Shown piece by piece: positions 596 through 16,352 of a stretch of 17,419 nucleotides of DNA (position 1 is the stretch's first letter; the number at the start of each line of letters is the position of its first letter). The notes under the pieces are model-generated. The model worked only from the letters and a program-made list of their open reading frames with translations, did not search any database and had not been told where the DNA came from. Both the position numbers and the translations under genes were made by a program. The stretch is from Paenibacillus xylanivorans (GTDB lineage: Bacteria; Bacillota; Bacilli; Paenibacillales; Paenibacillaceae): NCBI RefSeq assembly GCF_001280595.1, contig NZ_LITU01000053.1, positions 170,919 to 188,337 of the forward strand. The letters run 5' to 3'.

Positions 596-1663
596 TTGTT
601 CAAAATCGGAAATCAAGGAACGTTTGAAACGTTGCCTGATCACGCCATGGCGATTTACAAGGGAGACGTTATTGCTGTAGAAGAATTCATTAGAGAGGGT
701 ATGGATCTTGAAAAAGAGATTTCGCTGAGCAAATACATAGCTTTGACACCATTGGATATTGCCCTAATCACCAACCAGCAGGCAGTGGTCAAGTTGTTGG
801 TGGAGTACGGAGTGAACCTAAATGTGAAGGACAACCCGGCAATCCTCAGGGCGGTCAGATATGGAGGGGAAGAGATTGTCCGATATCTGCACCAGAAGGG
901 TGCCAAGTTGAATGGTTTGAGCAAGGTGAAGTCGAGCGCATATGATGAAGCCTATTACGGTAACAAAAAGAATATGGCCGTGGTGAAAGAACTAGGATTG
1001 GACATTCGAAAATACGGAGGGAAAACACTGCGAAGAGCTGTGTCAGACCACGATCTGCAAACGATTCAGTATTTACTGGATGAGGGTGTACATATTAACT
1101 ACAATGAACCGGACATGGTTTATCCCTATAAGGCCACGCCACTTACGGTAGCCGCTCGCAACAACAATATGAAGATGGTTCAATTTCTGGTGGAACAGGG
1201 GGCGGATGTGACCATTCAAGAGAAGGATGGGGAACGAGCATACACGATTGCCATCAGTCAGAAAAATGAAGAAATGGCAGAGTATTTGAAATCTCATGAG
1301 CCGCAAGACTTTCACAATCTGAGCAATAAATTGCATTTGCTTAAATCGTACAAGCTACCTGATGAATTAATCCGTTTTCTAACGGAAGGTCTGCGCAGAA
1401 TCGACTTGCCAAAAAATCCGTCCGGCGTGGGATACATCGAATTCTTCCATCTGATCGATACGGTGGAGATGAAGCTGGGCAGACAGAAACTGCTGCGCAT
1501 ATCCTCTGACTTGGAGCAGTACTCCCATATCCTGATCGTCTGGAATCCAAGCAAAAAAATGATTGGCTACGCAGACATTGAACATCAGGAGCACGGAACG
1601 ATCTCCACGTTCGAAGCGTTCATGGCCGATCCCGCATCATATATGGATAATCTCCTGAATTAA
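596..1663 (+). CDS. Ankyrin-repeat protein with a C-terminal SUKH/SMI1-KNR4-like domain (immunity-protein-like)
   Basis: TTG start with GAGGAGG at 581-587. About 5 ankyrin repeats are readable (TPLDIALITNQQAVVKLLVEYGVNLNVKD; ILRAVRYGGEEIVRYLHQKGAKLN; TPLTVAARNNNMKMVQFLVEQGADV). The C-terminal ~120 aa (KLPDELIRFL...ILIVWNPSKKMIGYADIEHQEHGTISTFEAFM) fits the SUKH-1 pattern. Confidence 0.75.
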   Translation: MFKIGNQGTFETLPDHAMAIYKGDVIAVEEFIREGMDLEKEISLSKYIALTPLDIALITNQQAVVKLLVEYGVNLNVKDNPAILRAVRYGGEEIVRYLHQKGAKLNGLSKVKSSAYDEAYYGNKKNMAVVKELGLDIRKYGGKTLRRAVSDHDLQTIQYLLDEGVHINYNEPDMVYPYKATPLTVAARNNNMKMVQFLVEQGADVTIQEKDGERAYTIAISQKNEEMAEYLKSHEPQDFHNLSNKLHLLKSYKLPDELIRFLTEGLRRIDLPKNPSGVGYIEFFHLIDTVEMKLGRQKLLRISSDLEQYSHILIVWNPSKKMIGYADIEHQEHGTISTFEAFMADPASYMDNLLN

Positions 1664-1682
1664 CCAGAGGGACTTCACTATC

Positions 1683-1724
1683 ACAAGAACCTCTTGTATA
1701 TTGTCGATATACAGGAGGTTTTTT
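1683..1724 (+). terminator. Weak candidate terminator: two short AT-rich hairpins followed by a T-run
   Basis: acaaga-acc-tcttgt (1683-1697) and tgtatat-tgtcg-atataca (1695-1713), then ggagg + tttttt (1719-1724). The stems are short, and the T-run is separated from the stem. Confidence 0.3.
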
Positions 1725-1961
1725 AGTGTCTATACCATTCATCTATAGGAAAAATATCTCATGAAATATGAACTATACTAGTGCGAAAGGAGGTTAAAAA
1801 TGGTAAAATAGCAATGCCTAAACATGAAAAAACATTTTTGTTGAAAGATTAGCAGATAAGTAAGATATAAAATGGTTTAACTTTAGATTGTTAGAAAGCG
1901 ATTGTTAGTACGATTGTTTCAATGAAATTATAGTATTCTACTACTGGAGTGAGGAAGAGAA

Positions 1962-3266
1962 ATGGCCATTATTGACGTAATCAAGTATGACGGTTCACCT
2001 GATGTATTTGCTTGGAAGCATCCTGAGAACGAATTGGGAACATGGACCCAGTTGATTGTGAATCAATCCCAACAGGCAATCCTCTTTAAGGATGGAAGGG
2101 CACTTGATATGTTCGGCCCAGGAAGACATACGCTAAGTACGGCGAATATCCCGATCTTAAACCGGCTCGTTAACCTTCCGTTCGGAGGTAAATCACCTTT
2201 TGCAGCAGAAGTGTGGTACGTCAATCAAGTAAGCGCACTAGACGTGAAATGGGGAACAGCAAATCCAATCCAGGTACAGGACCCAAAATATAATATTATC
2301 GTTCCCGTAAGAGCATTTGGGCAGATGGGAATAAAAATAGCGGACTCTCGCAAATTTCTGATCAAACTTGTGGGAACACTGCCTGAATTTAACCAGGCTA
2401 ATATGGTCAATTACTTTCGCGGGCTAATTATTATGAACATTAACTCCATGCTGTCTTCCTATCTAATACATAGAAAAGTAAGTGTACTGGAAATCAATGC
2501 TTATATCGCCGAAATATCACGACATTTTGCTGATACGATCGCATCTGCTTTTGAAGAGTTTGGTATTGAGTTAATCAACCTGTATATCCACAATGTCAAT
2601 CTGCCTGAAGAGGACCCTTCGGTCATTCGATTGAGAGAAGCGTTGGCACGCAAAGCTGAAATGGATATTATCGGGTACACCTATCAACAGGAGCGTTCAT
2701 TCGATACGCTTGAAGGTGCAGCCAAAAATGAAGGAAGCATGCAATCGGATATTATGGGTGCAGGGCTTGGTATGGGGATGGGTGTTGGACTGGGAGGATC
2801 ATTCAGCAGCGAGATGTCCCAGATGTCCAAAGTGATGGCTACAACGGAAACGCCTGCTGTACGCATATGCAAACATTGCAGTCATCCGAACCAGGAGCAT
2901 AGTTCTTTTTGCAGCAAGTGTGGCAATTCATTTGCCGAAAAATCAGCAACGACCGGTTGTAACAACTGTGGACATGCCTTGCAAAAAGGGACCAAATTTT
3001 GTCCCAATTGTGGAGACAAATATCATGCATGCCCATCCTGCGGGGCGGATAATGCGGATAATGCTTTGGCATGTGTTCAGTGTCACGAACCGATGCCTAG
3101 CCCATGCCCCAAGTGCAATCATATGAATTCGGGTCAAACTAAATTCTGCGGCAACTGCGGCTCCGGTCTGTCCTTGAAATGCAGTCAATGTCAACATGAA
3201 GTGAAGCCCGGTCAGAAGTTCTGTCTGGATTGCGGAAACAATCTGCAAGATGGAGGGCAGGCATAG
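1962..3266 (+). CDS. YdjI-like SPFH/Band_7_1-family protein with a Gly/Met-rich linker and five tandem C-terminal zinc ribbons
   Basis: ATG 1962 with GGAGTGAGGAAGAG upstream. The N-terminus (MAIIDVIKYDGSPDVFAWKHP...LIVNQSQQAILFKDGRALDMFGPGRHTL...LPFGGKSPFAAEVWYVN) matches my memory of the Band_7_1 'virion core protein-like' SPFH family that includes B. subtilis YdjI. The linker is GAGLGMGMGVGLGG. Then come 5x C-x2-C-x9-13-C-x2-C motifs (20 Cys). Confidence 0.85.
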   Translation: MAIIDVIKYDGSPDVFAWKHPENELGTWTQLIVNQSQQAILFKDGRALDMFGPGRHTLSTANIPILNRLVNLPFGGKSPFAAEVWYVNQVSALDVKWGTANPIQVQDPKYNIIVPVRAFGQMGIKIADSRKFLIKLVGTLPEFNQANMVNYFRGLIIMNINSMLSSYLIHRKVSVLEINAYIAEISRHFADTIASAFEEFGIELINLYIHNVNLPEEDPSVIRLREALARKAEMDIIGYTYQQERSFDTLEGAAKNEGSMQSDIMGAGLGMGMGVGLGGSFSSEMSQMSKVMATTETPAVRICKHCSHPNQEHSSFCSKCGNSFAEKSATTGCNNCGHALQKGTKFCPNCGDKYHACPSCGADNADNALACVQCHEPMPSPCPKCNHMNSGQTKFCGNCGSGLSLKCSQCQHEVKPGQKFCLDCGNNLQDGGQA

Positions 3267-4009
3267 TGATAATTAAACGGAGCAATCTTTTCATTTTAAA
3301 TGTCATCTATCTGATCTGTATGCTTGTATCCTCAGTCGTTTCTTTTACGGTGTTTAGTCATGCTATTGTATCGTTTCCTTTCTGGATGAATCTTGTGGCT
3401 TCTTATTTCGCGATTACGGCGATTTGGATTTATATAAGGCATGTCATGCTACATATGGATCGCTTTAAGCAACTGGTTCCTGGTTACACAGCGTTAGGGA
3501 TCGTGTTGGTGATGTATCTGATTTGCGTAATGATATATTCTCTGTTTACAGGTTTAGCAGATCATGGTCTCCGCTGGTTCGTTTTGTTACATACGGTAAC
3601 TGCAGCGCTGGCAGTAATTCTATGTGGAATTATGTTGATCTATATCCGGAGTACAAGTCATCATGAAGCAGATGAACAAATGAAAACGGCTAACTTGAGA
3701 TCCATCGAAAATGCTTTGCAACAGTTGCTTCATACGATGGAGGATGATTCCATCCTGACTATGGAGGAGGACAGAAAGGCGCTTCAATCATTAGTTGAAC
3801 TGGTAAAGTACAGCGACCCAATCACTCCGGTTTCACTTGAGTATAGTGACCGTCAGATACTAATTGATATTGAATTGTTGAACGGTGAGATTGCGACACA
3901 GTATGCGGCAGGGGGATTGATAGATAGTGAACGTCTCACTTCGCAATTATCTCGGTTAAAGTCACGCTTGAAAGAACGGAATCAACAGATCATGAGAAGC
4001 AAATCATAA
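3266..4009 (+). CDS. Integral membrane protein (4 predicted TM helices) with a cytoplasmic coiled-coil C-terminal half. YdjH-like partner of the SPFH protein.
   Basis: I prefer GTG 3266 (RBS GGAGGG at 3251-3256, 9 nt spacing) to the track's TTG 3230, which lies inside the upstream gene. The GTG overlaps the upstream TAG stop (TAGTG), which suggests translational coupling. Hydrophobic segments are LFILNVIYLICMLVSSVVSF, MNLVASYFAITAIWIYI, ALGIVLVMYLICVMIYSLF and FVLLHTVTAALAVILCGIMLIYI, followed by a charged helical tail. Confidence 0.75.
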   Translation: MIIKRSNLFILNVIYLICMLVSSVVSFTVFSHAIVSFPFWMNLVASYFAITAIWIYIRHVMLHMDRFKQLVPGYTALGIVLVMYLICVMIYSLFTGLADHGLRWFVLLHTVTAALAVILCGIMLIYIRSTSHHEADEQMKTANLRSIENALQQLLHTMEDDSILTMEEDRKALQSLVELVKYSDPITPVSLEYSDRQILIDIELLNGEIATQYAAGGLIDSERLTSQLSRLKSRLKERNQQIMRSKS

Positions 4010-4028
4010 ATTTATAGGAGGAAAAGCT

Positions 4029-4415
4029 TTGAAGAGATTTTTTGGAATTATATTCATTATATTATCATCTCTAACAATATTGTTATCTTTATTATTAATA
4101 TCCCAGGGAACCGAAATGGCTATTATCAGTACGATTATTCTTTTTATACCCGGCGTTATCGTACTTGTTACAGGAATTAAAATGTGTAGTCGACCTAAAT
4201 TCCATCCCAAGGCTGATCATTATCAATACCATTACGACAGTGACGAGGAATATGATGATGAAGGGTACTATGAGGATGAGTACCACGATCATGAATACGA
4301 GGAACCGCAAGAAGCTGTATCTGTGAATTGTCCGGGATGTGGGGCCAAGGCGAAGGTATATCGGAAGCAATCCACGGATTGTGAGTATTGTGGAACAACT
4401 GTTGAAGCACCGTAA
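4029..4415 (+). CDS. Small membrane protein: 2 TM helices, an acidic Tyr/His/Asp/Glu-rich low-complexity tract and a C-terminal zinc ribbon. Possibly YdjG-like.
   Basis: TTG 4029 with AGGAGG at 4015-4020. TM region FFGIIFIILSSLTILLSLLLI / IISTIILFIPGVIVLVTGI. Acidic tract HYQYHYDSDEEYDDEGYYEDEYHDHEYEE. Zinc ribbon CPGCGAKAKVYRKQSTDCEYCG. Confidence 0.7.
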   Translation: MKRFFGIIFIILSSLTILLSLLLISQGTEMAIISTIILFIPGVIVLVTGIKMCSRPKFHPKADHYQYHYDSDEEYDDEGYYEDEYHDHEYEEPQEAVSVNCPGCGAKAKVYRKQSTDCEYCGTTVEAP

Positions 4416-4443
4416 AATGGTTCAGAATGGATACGAAAAGGAT

Positions 4444-4484
4444 AAAAGTCTGATTCCTACATGGAGTCAGGCTTTTATCTTTTA
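4444..4484. terminator. Bidirectional rho-independent terminator between convergent genes
   Basis: The stem agtctgattcc (4447-4457) pairs with ggagtcaggct (4463-4473) with two G-U wobbles and a 5-nt loop. An A-run (4444-4447) precedes it and tttatctttt (4473-4483) follows, so it could terminate either strand. Confidence 0.6.
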
Positions 4485-4540: not shown

Positions 4541-5181
4541 CTAAAAATCTCTCGTGCGTTCAAACACCTCTTCCAGTTCCTTGCGATTAACCTTTATAGC
4601 AGTTGTCTGGTCCATCCCTGGTTTTGATTCCAGTTGATCCAACAATTCAACAAAGGCGTTATAAATTTCTTCACGTTCGATTGTTTCAATAAAGTTGGCT
4701 TTGGCGTCCATCTCGTTAAACGTCTCGGTGTACTTCTCTACTAATGACATCAGTTGTTTCTGTATAACGCCTGAATCGCTCATATTTTGACTTAATCTTC
4801 GAATTTCTTTGAGGTGTTGTTTGTAGGTTTGAGCTGCTTTTTTGGCATGCGCTGCTTTAATATGATCCCGTCCGTCCCAGTCTCGAAAAGGGTTCGTTAG
4901 ATTCTCTGCGAGCCATTCCGGTTTACGTGGTTTACTGATTTCGAGTTCAAGCCCGGATCCAGCCGATTTTTCCAGAAATAAAAGCTGCATATGAGCGGTT
5001 TCATCTGACGAAGTTCCATTTCATCGGGCGGCTGATTTCCTGTCCAGTCCAATTGCAGGATTGCGGCAAGCTGGCGTGACCCCTTACTCCCGGTTTCTTT
5101 CAGGCCAGTTACCTGGCAGGCGGCATATTGTTGTAAATTTTCGACGTATACACAGTAAATGTCTCCGATCGTTGGTACCAT
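4541..5181 (-). pseudogene. Frameshifted hypothetical protein gene. Track ORFs 4897..5211 and 4541..4990 are two halves of one reading frame.
   Basis: AAAGGAG RBS then ATG at 5181 (MVPTIGDIYCVYVENLQQYAACQVTG...). That frame runs into out-of-frame sequence near 4990-5020, where the second ORF (MQLLFLEKSAGSG...ERTRDF) takes over. The second ORF has no RBS of its own, and the overlap is a 1-nt offset with no homopolymer. I do not recognise the family. Confidence 0.5.
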
Positions 5182-5346
5182 GATGTGCTCCTTTCGTTCT
5201 GCGTGAATCAATGCTAAGCTTCTTGTAAACTAAGGATTTTGCAGAATGATAATAAAAGAATTATATCAAAGGCGTCTTATCACATCCATTTTGGATAGAG
5301 CCGTATTTGAATCCATAGAAATCTAAATGTCTAAGGGAGGTTATTT

Positions 5347-6153
5347 ATGACTACAGGTATTAGCCGAAATAAAACACTGGGTGAATTTTTGAAATCTCGG
5401 AGGAGCCGGATTCAGCCAGAACAAGTCGGAATCAGCGGATCGTATGGACAACGCAGAACGCCTGGATTAAGGCGTGAGGAAGTCGCGGTGCTTGCAGGTG
5501 TCAGTGCAACTTACTACACTTGGCTTGAGCAGGGGAGAGAGGTTAACGCATCTCGAGAGGTGATGGAAAGTATAGCGGGTGCACTCCAGTTAAGCGAGGA
5601 AGAGAAGGACCACCTATTTCGTTTATGGGACCCCAATGCAGAGCATGAATTTCCTGCCTCCTATTCACATCTCGAAGCGGGATGGCAGAGTATCATTAGT
5701 CAACTTGCATACCCTTCTTTTATTACGAATGAAAGGTCTGAAGTACTTGCATGGAATGAGGCAGCGAATGAAAAACTTTTTGCCTTTTCCTCGATGAACG
5801 TGAACGACCGTGTCATGATGCGAATGTTATTTCTAGATGCAACGCTCCGGGAACGTATGCATAATTGGGATGAATTTGCACGGCATTCGGTAGCGGTGTT
5901 TCGTACGTACTATGACAAGTATCCGGGTGAACCCGGGTTTTACAAAATAATTCAACAGTTGAACGAGGACAGCACGGATTTTCAAAACATTTGGAACCTC
6001 CACCAAATTAAACAGAAAAAAGTCAACCGAATCTATCTCCAAACAACGGATCAGACGGATGGCATTGCCTATGCCTACGATATCTTTTCCATGAGTAATC
6101 TGAACGAACAGTCAGGTATTCATTGTTGTGTGTACATACCCGTTGTGGAGTGA
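5347..6153 (+). CDS. MmyB-like helix-turn-helix (XRE-type) transcriptional regulator
   Basis: AGGGAGG RBS at 5333-5340. The N-terminal HTH (GLRREEVAVLAGVSATYYTWLEQGR) and ...LFRLW motif, followed by a ~180 aa C-terminal ligand-binding-like domain, are typical of the MmyB family. Such regulators are commonly paired with reductases. Confidence 0.85.
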   Translation: MTTGISRNKTLGEFLKSRRSRIQPEQVGISGSYGQRRTPGLRREEVAVLAGVSATYYTWLEQGREVNASREVMESIAGALQLSEEEKDHLFRLWDPNAEHEFPASYSHLEAGWQSIISQLAYPSFITNERSEVLAWNEAANEKLFAFSSMNVNDRVMMRMLFLDATLRERMHNWDEFARHSVAVFRTYYDKYPGEPGFYKIIQQLNEDSTDFQNIWNLHQIKQKKVNRIYLQTTDQTDGIAYAYDIFSMSNLNEQSGIHCCVYIPVVE

Positions 6154-6277
6154 CAGTAACGCTCAGGGTGGTAATTCTAGTACTAGCATAAACAGACTGT
6201 GGTTGGGCCTCTGTTCGTGAAATAGAATGAATACATGTCCAATATTTTTCTATCTATTAACGAAAAGAGGGAACCAC

Positions 6278-7234
6278 ATGATCAACACAAGAACGTTGGG
6301 AAGCGATAATTTGCAGGTATCCGGGCTTGGACTAGGTGTAATGATGATGCCAGACAACCAAGATTCGGTGCATACAATCCGGGGTGCGCTGGATGCAGGA
6401 GTAACGATGTTCGATACAGCGGATCTGTACGGTGAATATGAAAAGCAGCAGTTTGGAGGTAACGAAAAATTGCTTGGACGTGCGCTTAAAGGGCGAAGAG
6501 CCGATGCTATTGTAGCAACCAAGTTCGGTATAACACATACCCAGGGTCCCAAGGGAGATCCGGCGTATATCAAAAAATCAGTGGATGCCAGTCTTTACAA
6601 CCTGGGGATGGATTACATAGATCTATATTATCAGCATCGTCCGGATCCCAATACTCCTATTGAGGAAACGGTGGGAACACTTGCCGATCTGGTTCAACAG
6701 GGGAAAATCCGTTATATAGGTCTGTCTGAAGCGTCTGCAGAGACGATTCGTCGTGCGAATGCCGTTCATCCAATCACAGCACTCCAAACGGAGTATTCAT
6801 TATGGAGTCGTGAGCTCGAAGATGAGATATTGCCATTGCTGAGCGAGTTGAACATTGGGCTTGTACCCTACAGTCCGTTGGGACGTGGCTTCCTGACAGG
6901 ACAGATCCGATCGATAGACGACCTGCCAGAGGACGATTATCGTCGTCATTATCCACGTTTCCAGGGTGAGAATTTCCAGAAGAATCTGGAGGTTGTGCGC
7001 CTGATCCAAGAGCTGGCTATGCAAAAAGGATGCACTGCTTCTCAGCTCGCACTCGCCTGGTTACTTGAAAAGGGAGAACATATCGTTCCGATCCCTGGTA
7101 CTCGCAGTTTGGAGAGAATTCACGAGAACCTGGGTGCCTTGCAGATTACTTTCACCAATGATGAATTGGCAGAGATTGAATGGATATCTCCCAAAGGATT
7201 TGCCGCAGGGGGAAGATACCCGGGGATTACTTAA
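6278..7234 (+). CDS. Aldo/keto reductase (AKR superfamily oxidoreductase)
   Basis: I prefer ATG 6278 (RBS AAGAGGGAA 6265-6273) to the track's 6227 start. Motifs are MINTRTLG...[44 protein letters not shown] and [14 protein letters not shown]. Confidence 0.9.
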
Positions 7235-15509: not shown

Positions 15510-16352
15510 ATGATTATTAAACAGATATTTAATAACAATATTGTCAGTACGGTGGATGACAAAAATCAGGAACTGCTGATCCTCGGCCGGGGTATCGGAT
15601 TTAAGTTCAAGGCTGGCGATGAGATCGATGAAGAGCGGATTGAGAAAGTATTCCGGCTTCAGGATGCATCGATCTATGAGAAGTTCAAGTCCATTGTTAC
15701 GGAAGTACCGATTGAAATTCTGCAGGCGACAGATGATATTGTGACGCTGGCACGTACGCAATTGAACAAAACCATCAGTGACGGAATTTATGTCTCACTG
15801 TCGGATCACATTCATTTTGCCGTCCAGCGTCTGGAAAAGGGAATGATAACGCGCAACCCGCTCTCCTGGGAAGTACAGCATTTCTACAAGGCCGAGTTCG
15901 ACGTGGCCCGAGAAGCGCTCACCTTGCTGAAGGAAAGACTGGATGTGGAGTTTCCGAAGGATGAGATATGCAACATAGCGCTGCATTTTATCAATGCGGA
16001 AGTTAATGATTCCATGAACGATGTCACTCATTTGATGCAACTGCTCCAGGAGATCATGAACATTATCAAATATCACTTCAATGTCGAATTGGATGAAGAT
16101 AGCGTGAACTATTTCCGTTTCATTACTCATTTGAAGTATTTCTGCCAACGGGTAATTACTCACTCGTCACATGACGATGCGGAGGAGTATTTATACGAGG
16201 TTGTACGGAAAAACTATCCCGAAACCTTCAAATGTATCGGCAAGATTGAGACTTTTATCCATAAGAACTATCAGTATGATATGACTCATTCGGAACAGTT
16301 GTATCTGACCCTCCATCTGGAGCGGTTAATGAAACCGAAGCGTGAGCAATGA
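15510..16352 (+). CDS. BglG/LicT/SacY-family transcription antiterminator (CAT RNA-binding domain + PRD1/PRD2)
   Basis: The N-terminus MIIKQIFNNNIVSTVDDKNQELLILGRGIGFKFKAGDEIDEERIEKVF is the canonical CAT domain. PRD histidines are present downstream. 280 aa. Confidence 0.9.
   Translation: MIIKQIFNNNIVSTVDDKNQELLILGRGIGFKFKAGDEIDEERIEKVFRLQDASIYEKFKSIVTEVPIEILQATDDIVTLARTQLNKTISDGIYVSLSDHIHFAVQRLEKGMITRNPLSWEVQHFYKAEFDVAREALTLLKERLDVEFPKDEICNIALHFINAEVNDSMNDVTHLMQLLQEIMNIIKYHFNVELDEDSVNYFRFITHLKYFCQRVITHSSHDDAEEYLYEVVRKNYPETFKCIGKIETFIHKNYQYDMTHSEQLYLTLHLERLMKPKREQ

What the first reader, a model, noticed from the sequence alone, without database searches (positions are those of the whole stretch)
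1962..4415. PspA-less, reshuffled ydjGHI-like membrane module: SPFH(Band_7_1)-5xZn-ribbon protein + 4TM/coiled-coil protein + small acidic Zn-ribbon membrane protein
Three tightly packed co-directional genes (gaps of -1 and 19 nt) encode three proteins. The first is a YdjI-like SPFH-family protein with a Gly/Met-rich linker and five zinc ribbons. The second is a 4-TM protein with a long coiled-coil tail. The third is a 2-TM protein with an acidic Tyr/His tract and a zinc ribbon. In B. subtilis the comparable proteins (YdjG/YdjH/YdjI) sit downstream of pspA in a sigma-W phage-shock operon. YdjI is reported to recruit PspA to the membrane. Here the order is inverted (I-H-G-like), no pspA or TGAAAC-N16-CGTA promoter is visible, and the module sits between an immunity-like gene and a decayed gene. 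It could be a stand-alone envelope-stress or phage-response module, or an undescribed variant of the SPFH/PspA system. The assignment of the last two genes to YdjH/YdjG is inference from architecture, not recognised similarity.
Basis: partly seen in the sequence, partly recalled or inferred. Interest (0 to 1): 0.72.

Follow-up and report, generated by a model that had tools for sequence, protein, structure and literature searches.

The report
PspA-independent SPFH three-gene membrane module
Three tightly packed Paenibacillus genes encode a soluble flotillin-like (SPFH) scaffold with five zinc ribbons and two small membrane proteins from families with no database model; the trio recurs without pspA in 80 species genomes examined, so it is an unstudied relative of the B. 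subtilis YdjGHI/SamGHI stress module, not a rearranged copy.

Summary
Genes at 1962-3266, 3266-4009 and 4029-4415 (gaps -1 and 19 nt) form one unit between two strong hairpins.

- **Gene 1:** Band_7_1 SPFH domain (E 2e-49), a Gly/Met-rich linker and five zinc ribbons.
- **Gene 2:** four TM helices plus a cytoplasmic four-helix bundle (AF2 pLDDT 95.5).
- **Gene 3:** TM hairpin, acidic Tyr/His tract and a C-terminal zinc ribbon.

- Gene 1 is a distant YdjI homologue (22% identity).
- Gene 2 is unrelated to YdjH, which is a TPM-domain protein (hhalign probability 0.2%).
- Gene 3 shares only a zinc-ribbon type with YdjG (81%).

The module recurs widely.
- Among the 80 closest gene-1 loci in species-representative genomes, 78 have a gene-2 homologue directly downstream.
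- 72 of 79 then carry one to four gene-3-type genes.
- Only one locus has a PspA-like ORF within 8 kb.

Most of these loci are Paenibacillaceae and Clostridia, with sporadic Spirochaetota and Synergistota. The window holds a lineage-specific subtype under purifying selection. Its gene 3 is a recombinant of two tandem copies.

The likely function is membrane partners docking an oligomeric SPFH scaffold, by analogy to SamGHI. That mechanism is inferred, not shown. Defence-system evidence is negative.

The parts
1685..1724 (+). Terminator-like hairpin followed by a U-run, after the upstream ankyrin-repeat gene. It separates that gene from the module.
   Evidence: RNA fold -21 kcal/mol, z -7.1 against shuffles. 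A stem-loop plus T-run is kept, with changed sequence, in all window-type loci.
1746..1827 (+). Conserved promoter/operator block upstream of gene 1.
   Evidence: About 82 nt are nearly invariant in 18 window-type loci, while the flanking intergenic DNA is variable.
1762..1787 (+). Near match to the sigma-W-type motif (TGAAAT-N16-CGAA).
   Evidence: Perfect TGAAAC-N16-CGTA occurs only in L013 and L020. The C of 'AAC' and the T of 'CGTA' vary among loci, so an ECF promoter is possible but weakly supported.
1801..1809 (+). Extended -10-like element TGGTAAAAT, the best candidate sigma-A promoter. It would give a 5' UTR of roughly 150 nt.
   Evidence: Invariant in all 18 window-type loci. Background frequency of the relaxed pattern is 3% of 410-nt windows. 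Function is not shown.
1962..3266 (+). Gene 1: soluble SPFH (Band_7_1, YdjI/SamI family) protein with a Gly/Met-rich linker and five C-terminal zinc ribbons, 434 aa.
   Evidence: Pfam. Invariant Cys pattern. No TM segment. The SPFH core of the AF2 model matches stomatin, HflK/C, prohibitin, flotillin and erlin at E 2e-8 to 1e-4. dN/dS 0.02-0.03, or 0.11 against the near-identical L011.
3266..4009 (+). Gene 2: integral membrane protein, four TM helices plus a cytoplasmic four-helix bundle, 247 aa. It belongs to a family with no Pfam or NCBIfam model.
   Evidence: GTG start with RBS. AF2 pLDDT 95.5. The family has 152 representatives at the 50% clustering level, most of them 215-257 aa apart from fragments and two giant multi-stretch proteins. 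Near-invariant residues are Y84, S183-D184-P185, R238-N239 and K246. A homologue lies directly downstream of gene 1 in 78 of 80 loci. dN/dS 0.09-0.22.
4029..4415 (+). Gene 3: TM hairpin, acidic Tyr/His-rich disordered tract and C-terminal zinc ribbon (V.C.GCGA...C[ED]YCG), 128 aa. It is a recombinant hybrid of two tandem paralogues.
   Evidence: Sequence. The ribbon is shared with gene-3-type proteins in 72 of 79 loci. Compared with L011, about 543 nt are missing, with the junction inside the ribbon-coding region near 4330. dN/dS 0.08-0.28.
4437..4483 (.). Strong A-tract/hairpin/U-tract between gene 3 and the convergent decayed gene. It is a likely bidirectional terminator.
   Evidence: RNA fold -29.3 kcal/mol, z -9.6.

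Best explanation
The three genes are one self-contained transcription unit. They encode a PspA-independent SPFH membrane module.

Proposed mechanism:
- Gene 1 is a cytoplasmic, oligomerising SPFH scaffold of the YdjI/SamI (Band_7_1) family. It has a flexible Gly/Met-rich linker that carries five zinc ribbons.
- It has no membrane anchor of its own. Genes 2 and 3 supply one.
- Gene 2 is a 4-TM protein whose conserved membrane-proximal cytoplasmic bundle (the SDP loop and the RN...K motif) faces the cytosol.
- Gene 3 is a TM-hairpin protein that presents a cytoplasmic zinc ribbon on an acidic tether.
- Together they are proposed to dock the SPFH oligomer on the inner face of the membrane. The resulting scaffold or sensor complex would act in membrane homeostasis or envelope-stress signalling. 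This parallels SamG/SamH recruiting SamI, and being restrained by it, in B. subtilis.

What is shown:
- Gene structure and domain content.
- The gene-2 fold.
- Conservation of the trio, absence of pspA, and purifying selection.

What is inferred:
- Physical interaction between the three proteins.
- Membrane recruitment.
- The physiological role.

The window carries a lineage-specific subtype, found in the P. taichungensis/amylolyticus/xylanexedens/illinoisensis clade. In it the gene-3 protein lacks the winged-helix-like domain found in most other members.
For: Anatomy:
- Pfam Band_7_1 plus five ribbons, and SPFH fold matches.
- High-confidence 4TM plus four-helix-bundle model for gene 2.
- Positive-inside residues place both partners' soluble parts in the cytoplasm (sequence).
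- Overlapping or close spacing, own terminators and a conserved promoter block.

Conservation:
- Gene-1 relatives number at least 567 in species-representative genomes.
- In the best 80, a gene-2 homologue follows directly in 78.
- Gene-3-type genes (1-4 copies) follow in 72 of 79.
- The pattern was first seen in Alkaliphilus, Cohnella and Paenibacillus loci.

Independence from psp:
- Apart from the two B. subtilis control loci, a PspA-like ORF occurs in only 1 of the 88 sources scanned.
- YdjG and YdjH homologues occur in none.

Analogy:
- YdjI is soluble and needs the membrane proteins YdjG and YdjH for localisation (PMC8581546).
- SamI restrains SamGH, and PspA is dispensable for that phenotype (bioRxiv 10.64898/2026.02.06.704340).
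- YdjI shares the Gly/Met linker and a C-terminal ribbon.
- The gene-3 ribbon resembles YdjG's second ribbon.

Functionality:
- dN/dS is 0.02-0.28 for all three genes.
Against: - No experiment or interaction prediction links the three proteins. Conserved adjacency is the only evidence.
- The partner proteins are not homologues of YdjG/YdjH, so the analogy is architectural.
- The gene-1 model is of low overall confidence (pLDDT 62).
- The gene-3 versus YdjG ribbon match is short and only 81% probable.
- The window's gene 3 is a deletion hybrid. The 3' part of gene 2 is unusually diverged: 75-79% DNA identity to L011 against 85-93% in the flanks. This copy could therefore be drifting.
- Regulation is unresolved: an extended -10 or a weak sigma-W-like motif.
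- Conservation figures apply to loci at 52% or more identity to gene 1, not to all Band_7_1 proteins.
Confidence: 0.55

Rival explanations
1. It is an ordinary psp locus. A pspA gene lies just outside the window and the three genes are the tail of a pspA-ydjGHI-type operon.
For: Gene 1 is in the YdjI family. B. subtilis YdjI works with PspA.
Against: - A strong terminator and a conserved promoter block lie between the upstream ankyrin gene and gene 1.
- Seventeen syntenic loci with about 8 kb flanks have no PspA.
- Only L034, of the 88 sources scanned, has a PspA-like ORF. It lies 5.6 kb away.
- The precomputed Pfam tables of five loci show no PspA_IM30.
Confidence: 0.03
2. It is an anti-phage or abortive-infection system. 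The SPFH protein would sense infection and release gene 2, whose four-helix bundle resembles CC-NLR/MLKL executioner domains, as a membrane-disrupting effector.
For: - Faint SLATT / CBASS-2TM-effector hits, E about 0.004.
- The partners evolve faster than gene 1, vary in copy number and recombine.
- SUKH/SMI1 immunity genes lie a few kb upstream in relatives.
Against: - De novo designed helical bundles score as well as Rx or MLKL, so the fold match is generic.
- PADLOC and SLATT hits occur in at most 3 of 80 family members.
- There is no PADLOC hit for gene 1 beyond noise.
- No orthologue was found in the viral contigs, phage or plasmid collections.
- Nine loci sit between obg and pheB in a housekeeping region.
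- dN/dS is well below 1.
Confidence: 0.08
3. It is a membrane-tethered signalling device. The gene-3-type protein would be a membrane-bound transcription regulator that is sequestered or released by the SPFH scaffold.
For: - In most non-window loci the gene-3 protein has 3 TM, a winged-helix-like segment and the ribbon. The matches are weak: HTH_DeoR E 0.002, and MarR-type ZitR E 0.02.
- SamGH is proposed to signal.
Against: - The window's gene 3, and all type-A and window-type relatives, lack that domain. They have a disordered acidic or low-complexity tract instead.
- The HTH assignment is below curated thresholds.
- No target or regulon is known.
Confidence: 0.12
4. It is an SPFH cage that regulates a protease or channel encoded elsewhere, like HflK/C-FtsH or stomatin-NfeD. 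Genes 2 and 3 would be substrates or adaptors.
For: The SPFH fold matches HflK/C, stomatin and prohibitin, which act this way. This is general knowledge of the family.
Against: - No protease, NfeD or channel gene appears in any of the operons examined.
- Gene 1 lacks the N-terminal TM or hairpin and the long coiled-coil of those proteins.
Confidence: 0.12

Closest known systems
B. subtilis PspA-YdjGHI (SamGHI) system
   Same: - A soluble Band_7_1 SPFH protein with a Gly/Met-rich linker and C-terminal zinc ribbon.
- It is encoded with two small integral membrane proteins, one of which carries a CxxCGA...Cx[YF]CG-type ribbon.
- In B. subtilis the membrane proteins recruit the SPFH protein.
   Different: - There is no pspA here.
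- The SPFH protein is first in the operon, not last.
- It has five ribbons instead of one and is only 22% identical to YdjI.
- Partner 1 is a 4TM plus four-helix-bundle protein, not a TPM-domain protein.
- Partner 2 has N-terminal TMs and a C-terminal ribbon. It lacks YdjG's TFIIB ribbon and globular domain.
- No convincing sigma-W promoter.
Classical bacterial SPFH systems: HflK/C-FtsH, QmcA-YbbJ (stomatin-NfeD), flotillins FloA/FloT
   Same: SPFH fold. Operon pairing of an SPFH protein with a dedicated membrane protein.
   Different: - Those SPFH proteins anchor themselves with a TM or hairpin and have long coiled-coils.
- Their partners are NfeD or FtsH.
- Here the SPFH protein is soluble and zinc-ribbon-tailed, and its partners belong to unmodelled families.
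Band_7_1 proteins with C-terminal SHOCT or zinc-ribbon tails (COG4260, 'stomatin/prohibitin family, contains C-terminal Zn-ribbon domain')
   Same: Same domain family and the same principle of a short C-terminal binding or oligomerisation module. Sources give gene-1 orthologues this very name.
   Different: - The five-ribbon array is fixed and invariant in this subfamily.
- It is tied to the two partner genes.
- No function is described for either.
SLATT / CBASS 2TM effectors
   Same: Small helical membrane proteins with a cytoplasmic helical part. Faint HMM hits.
   Different: The hits are inconsistent, in at most 3 of 80 family members. No associated nucleotide cyclase or other defence gene is present.

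Membership tests
SPFH superfamily, Band_7_1 / YdjI (SamI) family | Band_7_1 (PF13421) domain above the gathering threshold | tested here: met
   168.3 bits against a cut-off of 24, E 2.3e-49, aa 15-220. YdjI itself scores 146.9 bits.
SPFH superfamily, Band_7_1 / YdjI (SamI) family | SPFH alpha/beta fold | tested here: met
   The core of the AF2 model (pLDDT about 80-87) matches stomatin, HflK/C, prohibitin, flotillin and erlin at E 2e-8 to 1e-4. The whole-model confidence is low.
SPFH superfamily, Band_7_1 / YdjI (SamI) family | No own membrane anchor; low-complexity linker plus C-terminal zinc ribbon | tested here: met
   No hydrophobic segment. Gly/Met-rich linker. Five ribbons against one in YdjI.
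SPFH superfamily, Band_7_1 / YdjI (SamI) family | Orthology to YdjI (close similarity, same operon) | tested here: not met
   22% identity over 253 aa. YdjI is a distant outgroup to the 5-ribbon clade. The operon partners differ.
YdjH (SamH) | TPM-phosphatase domain (PF04536) followed by a TM and a low-complexity tail | tested here: not met
   Gene 2 has no TPM hit. The family profile against YdjH gives hhalign probability 0.2%. YdjH scores E 3e-23 for TPM.
YdjG (SamG) | N-terminal TFIIB-type zinc ribbon, second ribbon, large globular domain and C-terminal TM | tested here: not met
   Gene 3 has the reverse order (TMs first) and no globular domain. Only its ribbon aligns to YdjG's second ribbon: probability 80.7%, E 1.3e-5, 36 columns.
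psp operon | PspA/IM30 gene in the same operon or neighbourhood | tested here: not met
   No PspA_IM30 in the window ORFs. Phmmer with a real PspA found one distant hit among the 88 sources scanned (87 loci plus the window), controls aside.
psp operon | Sigma-W-type promoter TGAAAC-N16-CGTA | tested here: inconclusive
   TGAAAT-N16-CGAA lies at 1762-1787 inside a conserved block. The motif is perfect in 2 of 18 related loci, but the key bases are not conserved.
Known anti-phage defence systems (PADLOC) | Significant match of any component to a defence-system model | tested here: not met
   Only weak hits, E of 6e-4 or worse, inconsistent across the gene-2 family.
SLATT domain | Consistent match to a SLATT model across the family | tested here: not met
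   1 of 80 members matched in Pfam (E 1.7e-5). NCBIfam gave E 0.0046, far below the cut-off.
SPFH scaffolds in general | Formation of large membrane-associated oligomers | not testable with these tools
   This needs multimer prediction or experiment.

The most novel reading that the evidence does not exclude
The trio defines a so-far undescribed, widely distributed SPFH system. It occurs in hundreds of Bacillota species and sporadically in Spirochaetota and Synergistota. It is built from two membrane-protein families with no model in Pfam or NCBIfam.

In this reading a five-ribbon SPFH oligomer is tethered through ribbon-to-ribbon or ribbon-to-bundle contacts to fast-evolving, copy-number-variable membrane sensors. 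It would act as a PspA-independent membrane-stress sensor or brake.
Probability: 0.35. Interest if true: 0.6.

Novelty: new variant of a known kind. Interest (0 to 1): 0.45.

Why it matters
- Bacterial SPFH proteins are poorly understood. The only studied soluble Band_7_1 member (YdjI/SamI) is entangled with PspA. A conserved operon that keeps the 'SPFH plus two membrane partners' logic with different partners and no PspA gives a natural system for asking what the SPFH scaffold does by itself.
- It gives names and anchors to two unannotated membrane-protein families. The gene-2 family has 152 cluster representatives and a very confident fold.
- The shared ribbon type between gene-3 proteins and YdjG points to a testable docking element that may be common to both systems.

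Tried and rejected
- Exact look-up of gene 1 in the contig index found nothing.
- A profile search of gene 2 against PDB sequences gave only a designed protein.
- The gene-2 family alignment was too divergent for pattern-based locus searching.
- The viral contig scan returned only zinc-ribbon matches. The plasmid and phage collections hold only distant Band_7_1 relatives below 40% identity. The Butyrivibrio plasmid neighbour set is unrelated.
- Rfam found nothing in the window.
- The consensus promoter/terminator scan missed both hairpins and gave fewer promoter-like sites than the shuffles.
- I could not establish that the P0112 copy (obg-linked; its cluster includes P. odorifer) co-occurs with the window type in one genome. 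Whether the window copy is an extra paralogue or the clade's only copy is therefore open.
- The gene-1 AF2 model is too poor outside the SPFH core to say how the ribbons pack.
- Literature searches found no description of this trio: YdjI/G/H; Band_7_1/COG4260; SPFH with zinc ribbon; SPFH with Paenibacillus.
Full report
**1. The observation**

The window has three co-directional ORFs at 1962-3266, 3230/3266-4009 and 4029-4415.

Gene 1 (434 aa):
- It scores 168 bits (E 2.3e-49) on Pfam Band_7_1 over aa 15-220.
- It carries five zinc-ribbon stretches (DZR E 4.7e-23; Zn_Ribbon_1 E 1.8e-21).
- In an alignment of 21 orthologues, all twenty Cys of five CxxC...CxxC units are invariant or nearly so.
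- A Gly/Met-rich low-complexity stretch joins the two parts.

Gene 2:
- It really starts at GTG 3266, one base inside the gene-1 stop codon and 9 nt after GGAGGG.
- All homologues start there.

Gene 3:
- It starts at TTG 4029 behind AGGAGGA, 19 nt after gene 2.

Boundaries of the unit:
- A hairpin with a U-run at 1685-1724 (-21 kcal/mol, z -7.1) closes the upstream ankyrin gene.
- A hairpin at 4437-4483 (-29.3 kcal/mol, z -9.6) closes the unit.

The stated anatomy is therefore correct. The one refinement is that the 'coiled-coil tail' of gene 2 is a folded bundle.

**2. The partner proteins**

Gene 2:
- It has no Pfam, NCBIfam or PADLOC family. There are only faint hits to SLATT_6 and CBASS 2TM effectors at E about 0.004.
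- A word-based search found only 19 homologues, all Paenibacillus.
- A profile search of 1.84 billion cluster representatives found 152 (43 at E of 1e-10 or better). Most are 215-257 aa and match end to end; the rest are fragments and two giant multi-stretch proteins.
- In an 80-member alignment the near-invariant positions are Y84, S183-D184-P185, R238-N239 and K246.
- AlphaFold2 with this alignment gives pLDDT 95.5 and pTM 0.80. There are four TM helices, and the fourth runs on to residue 159. With helices 164-181, 189-214 and 221-246 it forms a cytoplasmic four-helix bundle.
- By topology, the SDP loop and the RN...K motif lie at the membrane-proximal end of that bundle. This placement is an inference.
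- Foldseek found nothing significant in the PDB.

Gene 3:
- It has two hydrophobic helices with positive residues on the cytoplasmic side.
- An acidic Tyr/His tract follows, then the ribbon VNCPGCGAKAKVYRKQSTDCEYCGTT.

**3. The trio is a conserved module**

- Gene-1 orthologues with the full five-ribbon architecture (53-90% identity) occur in Paenibacillus, Cohnella, Fontibacillus and Alkaliphilus.
- In loci from Alkaliphilus peptidifermentans, Cohnella abietis and a Paenibacillus of the P0112 cluster, gene 1 is followed by a Pfam-less protein of 236-251 aa and then one of 228-258 aa.
- Their sequences share the K[YF]SDP and RN motifs with gene 2. They share the C.GCG...C[ED][YF]CG ribbon with gene 3.
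- A scan of one genome per GTDB species, using subfamily-specific peptide patterns, confirmed at least 567 relatives. The best 80 loci were kept.
- The closest is P. taichungensis Cl17b, at 98% identity.
- The list also holds Clostridia MAGs, the spirochaete Brucepastera parasyntrophica (complete genome; taxonomy) and a Synergistaceae MAG.
- With an HMM built from the independent gene-2 alignment, 78 of 80 loci have a gene-2 homologue directly downstream of gene 1. The two P. algorifonticola loci instead carry short TM-plus-ribbon proteins.
- 72 of 79 loci then have one to four tandem TM-plus-C-terminal-ribbon genes. The counts are 42, 20, 8 and 2 loci with one, two, three and four copies.

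**4. Test of the YdjGHI idea**

The literature describes the B. subtilis proteins as follows:
- YdjH is a TPM-phosphatase-domain membrane protein.
- YdjG has two zinc ribbons, an NTF2-like domain and a TM.
- YdjI has Band-7 plus a C-terminal ribbon (bioRxiv 10.1101/2020.09.24.301986).
- YdjI is soluble and depends on YdjG and YdjH for membrane localisation (PMC8581546).
- SamI restrains SamGH, and PspA is dispensable for that phenotype (bioRxiv 10.64898/2026.02.06.704340).

I recovered a real B. subtilis-group locus using a primer sequence printed in the paper. Pfam confirmed PspA_IM30, Zn_Ribbon_TF, TPM_phosphatase and Band_7_1 plus a ribbon.

| Comparison | Result |
|---|---|
| Gene 1 vs YdjI | 22% identity over 253 aa, E 1e-17 |
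| Gene-2 family vs YdjH | hhalign probability 0.2% |
| Gene-2 family vs YdjG | probability 0.3% (0.1% vs the YdjG family) |
| Gene-3 family vs YdjG family | probability 80.7%, E 1.3e-5, 36 columns |

- The last match pairs the gene-3 ribbon with YdjG's second ribbon. With YdjG as a single sequence the probability was 69%.
- YdjI is a far outgroup in an NJ tree of the SPFH part.
- Phmmer with the real PspA, YdjG and YdjH against every ORF of 50 aa or more in the 87 loci and the window found one PspA-like ORF. It is in L034, 5.6 kb upstream. No YdjG or YdjH homologue was found.

So gene 1 is a family member but not an orthologue. Gene 2 is unrelated to YdjH. Gene 3 shares at most a ribbon module with YdjG. 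The absence of pspA is a property of the whole module family.

**5. Subtypes and the state of this copy**

- The window belongs to a tight clade of 17 loci at 89% identity or more. It includes P. taichungensis, P. xylanexedens, P. amylolyticus, P. xylanilyticus, P. illinoisensis, P. silvae and others.
- This clade sits between an ankyrin-repeat gene and a cupin/zwf-tal-gnd region.
- Its sister group (Fontibacillus, P. macerans, P. anaericanus, P. motobuensis; 64-71% identity) has gene-3 proteins built the same way. The match is full length, at hhalign probability 99.8%.
- The remaining loci have longer gene-3 proteins with three TMs and a winged-helix-like segment. These match the window's gene 3 only in the ribbon.
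- Nine loci of the P. lautus/etheri/lactis groups lie between obg and pheB.

Selection (window against seven relatives):

| Gene | dN/dS |
|---|---|
| Gene 1 | 0.02-0.03 (0.11 vs the near-identical L011) |
| Gene 2 | 0.09-0.22 |
| Gene 3 | 0.08-0.28 |

All three genes are therefore maintained, with the partners less constrained.

DNA identity to P. taichungensis Cl17b is mosaic:
- 95-99% over 1464-3560.
- 75-79% over 3564-4012, the gene-2 bundle.
- 85-93% in the flanks.

The window's gene 3 is a hybrid. P. taichungensis has two tandem genes. The window lacks about 543 nt, with the junction inside the ribbon-coding repeat. This joins the body of copy 1 to the ribbon end of copy 2, in frame and with all four Cys intact.

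**6. Regulation**

- An 82-nt block (1746-1827) is nearly invariant in the 18 window-type loci, within otherwise variable intergenic DNA.
- It holds an invariant TGGTAAAAT (1801-1809), an extended -10-like element.
- It also holds TGAAAT-N16-CGAA (1762-1787). This motif is a perfect sigma-W consensus only in two loci, and its diagnostic bases vary.
- I favour a sigma-A promoter with an adjacent operator, but this is not shown.
- No Rfam family matches.

**7. Rival readings**

- Defence: PADLOC gives nothing consistent for gene 1 or for 80 gene-2 relatives. No orthologue was found in the viral contigs, phage or plasmid collections. Many loci are in housekeeping surroundings.
- Membrane-tethered regulator: this reading is possible for the long gene-3 forms, but the window's form lacks that domain.
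- Protease- or channel-regulating cage: this cannot be excluded in trans, but no such gene is in the operons.

**8. Verdict**

- It is a conserved, PspA-independent SPFH operon with two unmodelled membrane partners.
- The window carries a lineage-specific, slightly rearranged copy.
- It works most plausibly like SamGHI, with membrane partners docking and being controlled by a soluble SPFH scaffold. It is not a member of that system apart from the SPFH family of gene 1.
- I found no published description of the trio.
- I rate it as a new variant of a known kind, of moderate interest.

Noticed in passing
window 4029-4415 vs L011 10068-10997: The window's gene 3 is an in-frame hybrid of two tandem paralogues. 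About 543 nt present in P. taichungensis are deleted, with the junction inside the zinc-ribbon coding repeat (near 4330). In L011 the second copy has a Cys-to-Phe change in its ribbon (CEYFG).
   Followed up: yes
window 4541-5211 (- strand): Two overlapping ORFs (149 and 104 aa) are the remnant of a 512-aa protein that is intact in L011 (11123-12661, - strand). That protein has a leucine-rich-repeat-like middle part and no Pfam hit. The window copy has lost the middle and is frameshifted.
   Followed up: partly
window 1464-4012 vs L011: Mosaic similarity to P. taichungensis Cl17b. Identity is 95-99% over the end of the ankyrin gene, the intergenic region, gene 1 and the first third of gene 2. 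It is only 75-79% over the gene-2 cytoplasmic bundle, against 85-93% in the flanks. This suggests recent recombination, with a breakpoint inside gene 2.
   Followed up: partly
window 1746-1827: An 82-nt intergenic block is almost invariant across 18 related loci. It contains a tandem ATGAAA(N)ATGAAC repeat, a near sigma-W motif and an extended -10-like TGGTAAAAT. Its role as promoter or operator is unknown.
   Followed up: partly
L063, L051, L069, L049 and others (downstream of gene 2): Gene-3-type genes occur in one to four tandem copies. In L073 and L006 two units are fused into one protein of 453-455 aa. This copy-number variation is unexplained.
   Followed up: partly
L006, L007, L057, L063, L067-L069, L073, L075, L076, L081: In several Paenibacillus species the module is inserted between spo0B-obg and pheB-hom-thrB, a conserved housekeeping region.
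   Followed up: partly
L078 (Brucepastera parasyntrophica), L074, L084: Orthologues at 52-53% identity, with a gene-2 homologue downstream, occur in a complete spirochaete genome and in Spirochaetia and Synergistaceae MAGs. This implies transfer across phyla; for the MAGs, binning errors are also possible.
   Followed up: no
window 596-1663: The upstream gene encodes a 355-aa ankyrin-repeat protein that is syntenic with the module in most window-type loci. It hits the PADLOC candidate PDC-M72A (E 1e-19), but only over the ankyrin repeats. SUKH/SMI1_KNR4 immunity-type genes lie further upstream in relatives.
   Followed up: no
window 5347-7234: An MmyB-like HTH regulator and an aldo-keto reductase lie between the decayed gene and the cupin gene. 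They are present in only some related loci, so they form a variable insert.
   Followed up: no
window 15510-16352: A BglG/LicT-type antiterminator (CAT_RBD plus two PRD domains) lies near the right end of the window. No RAT-like element was looked for.
   Followed up: no
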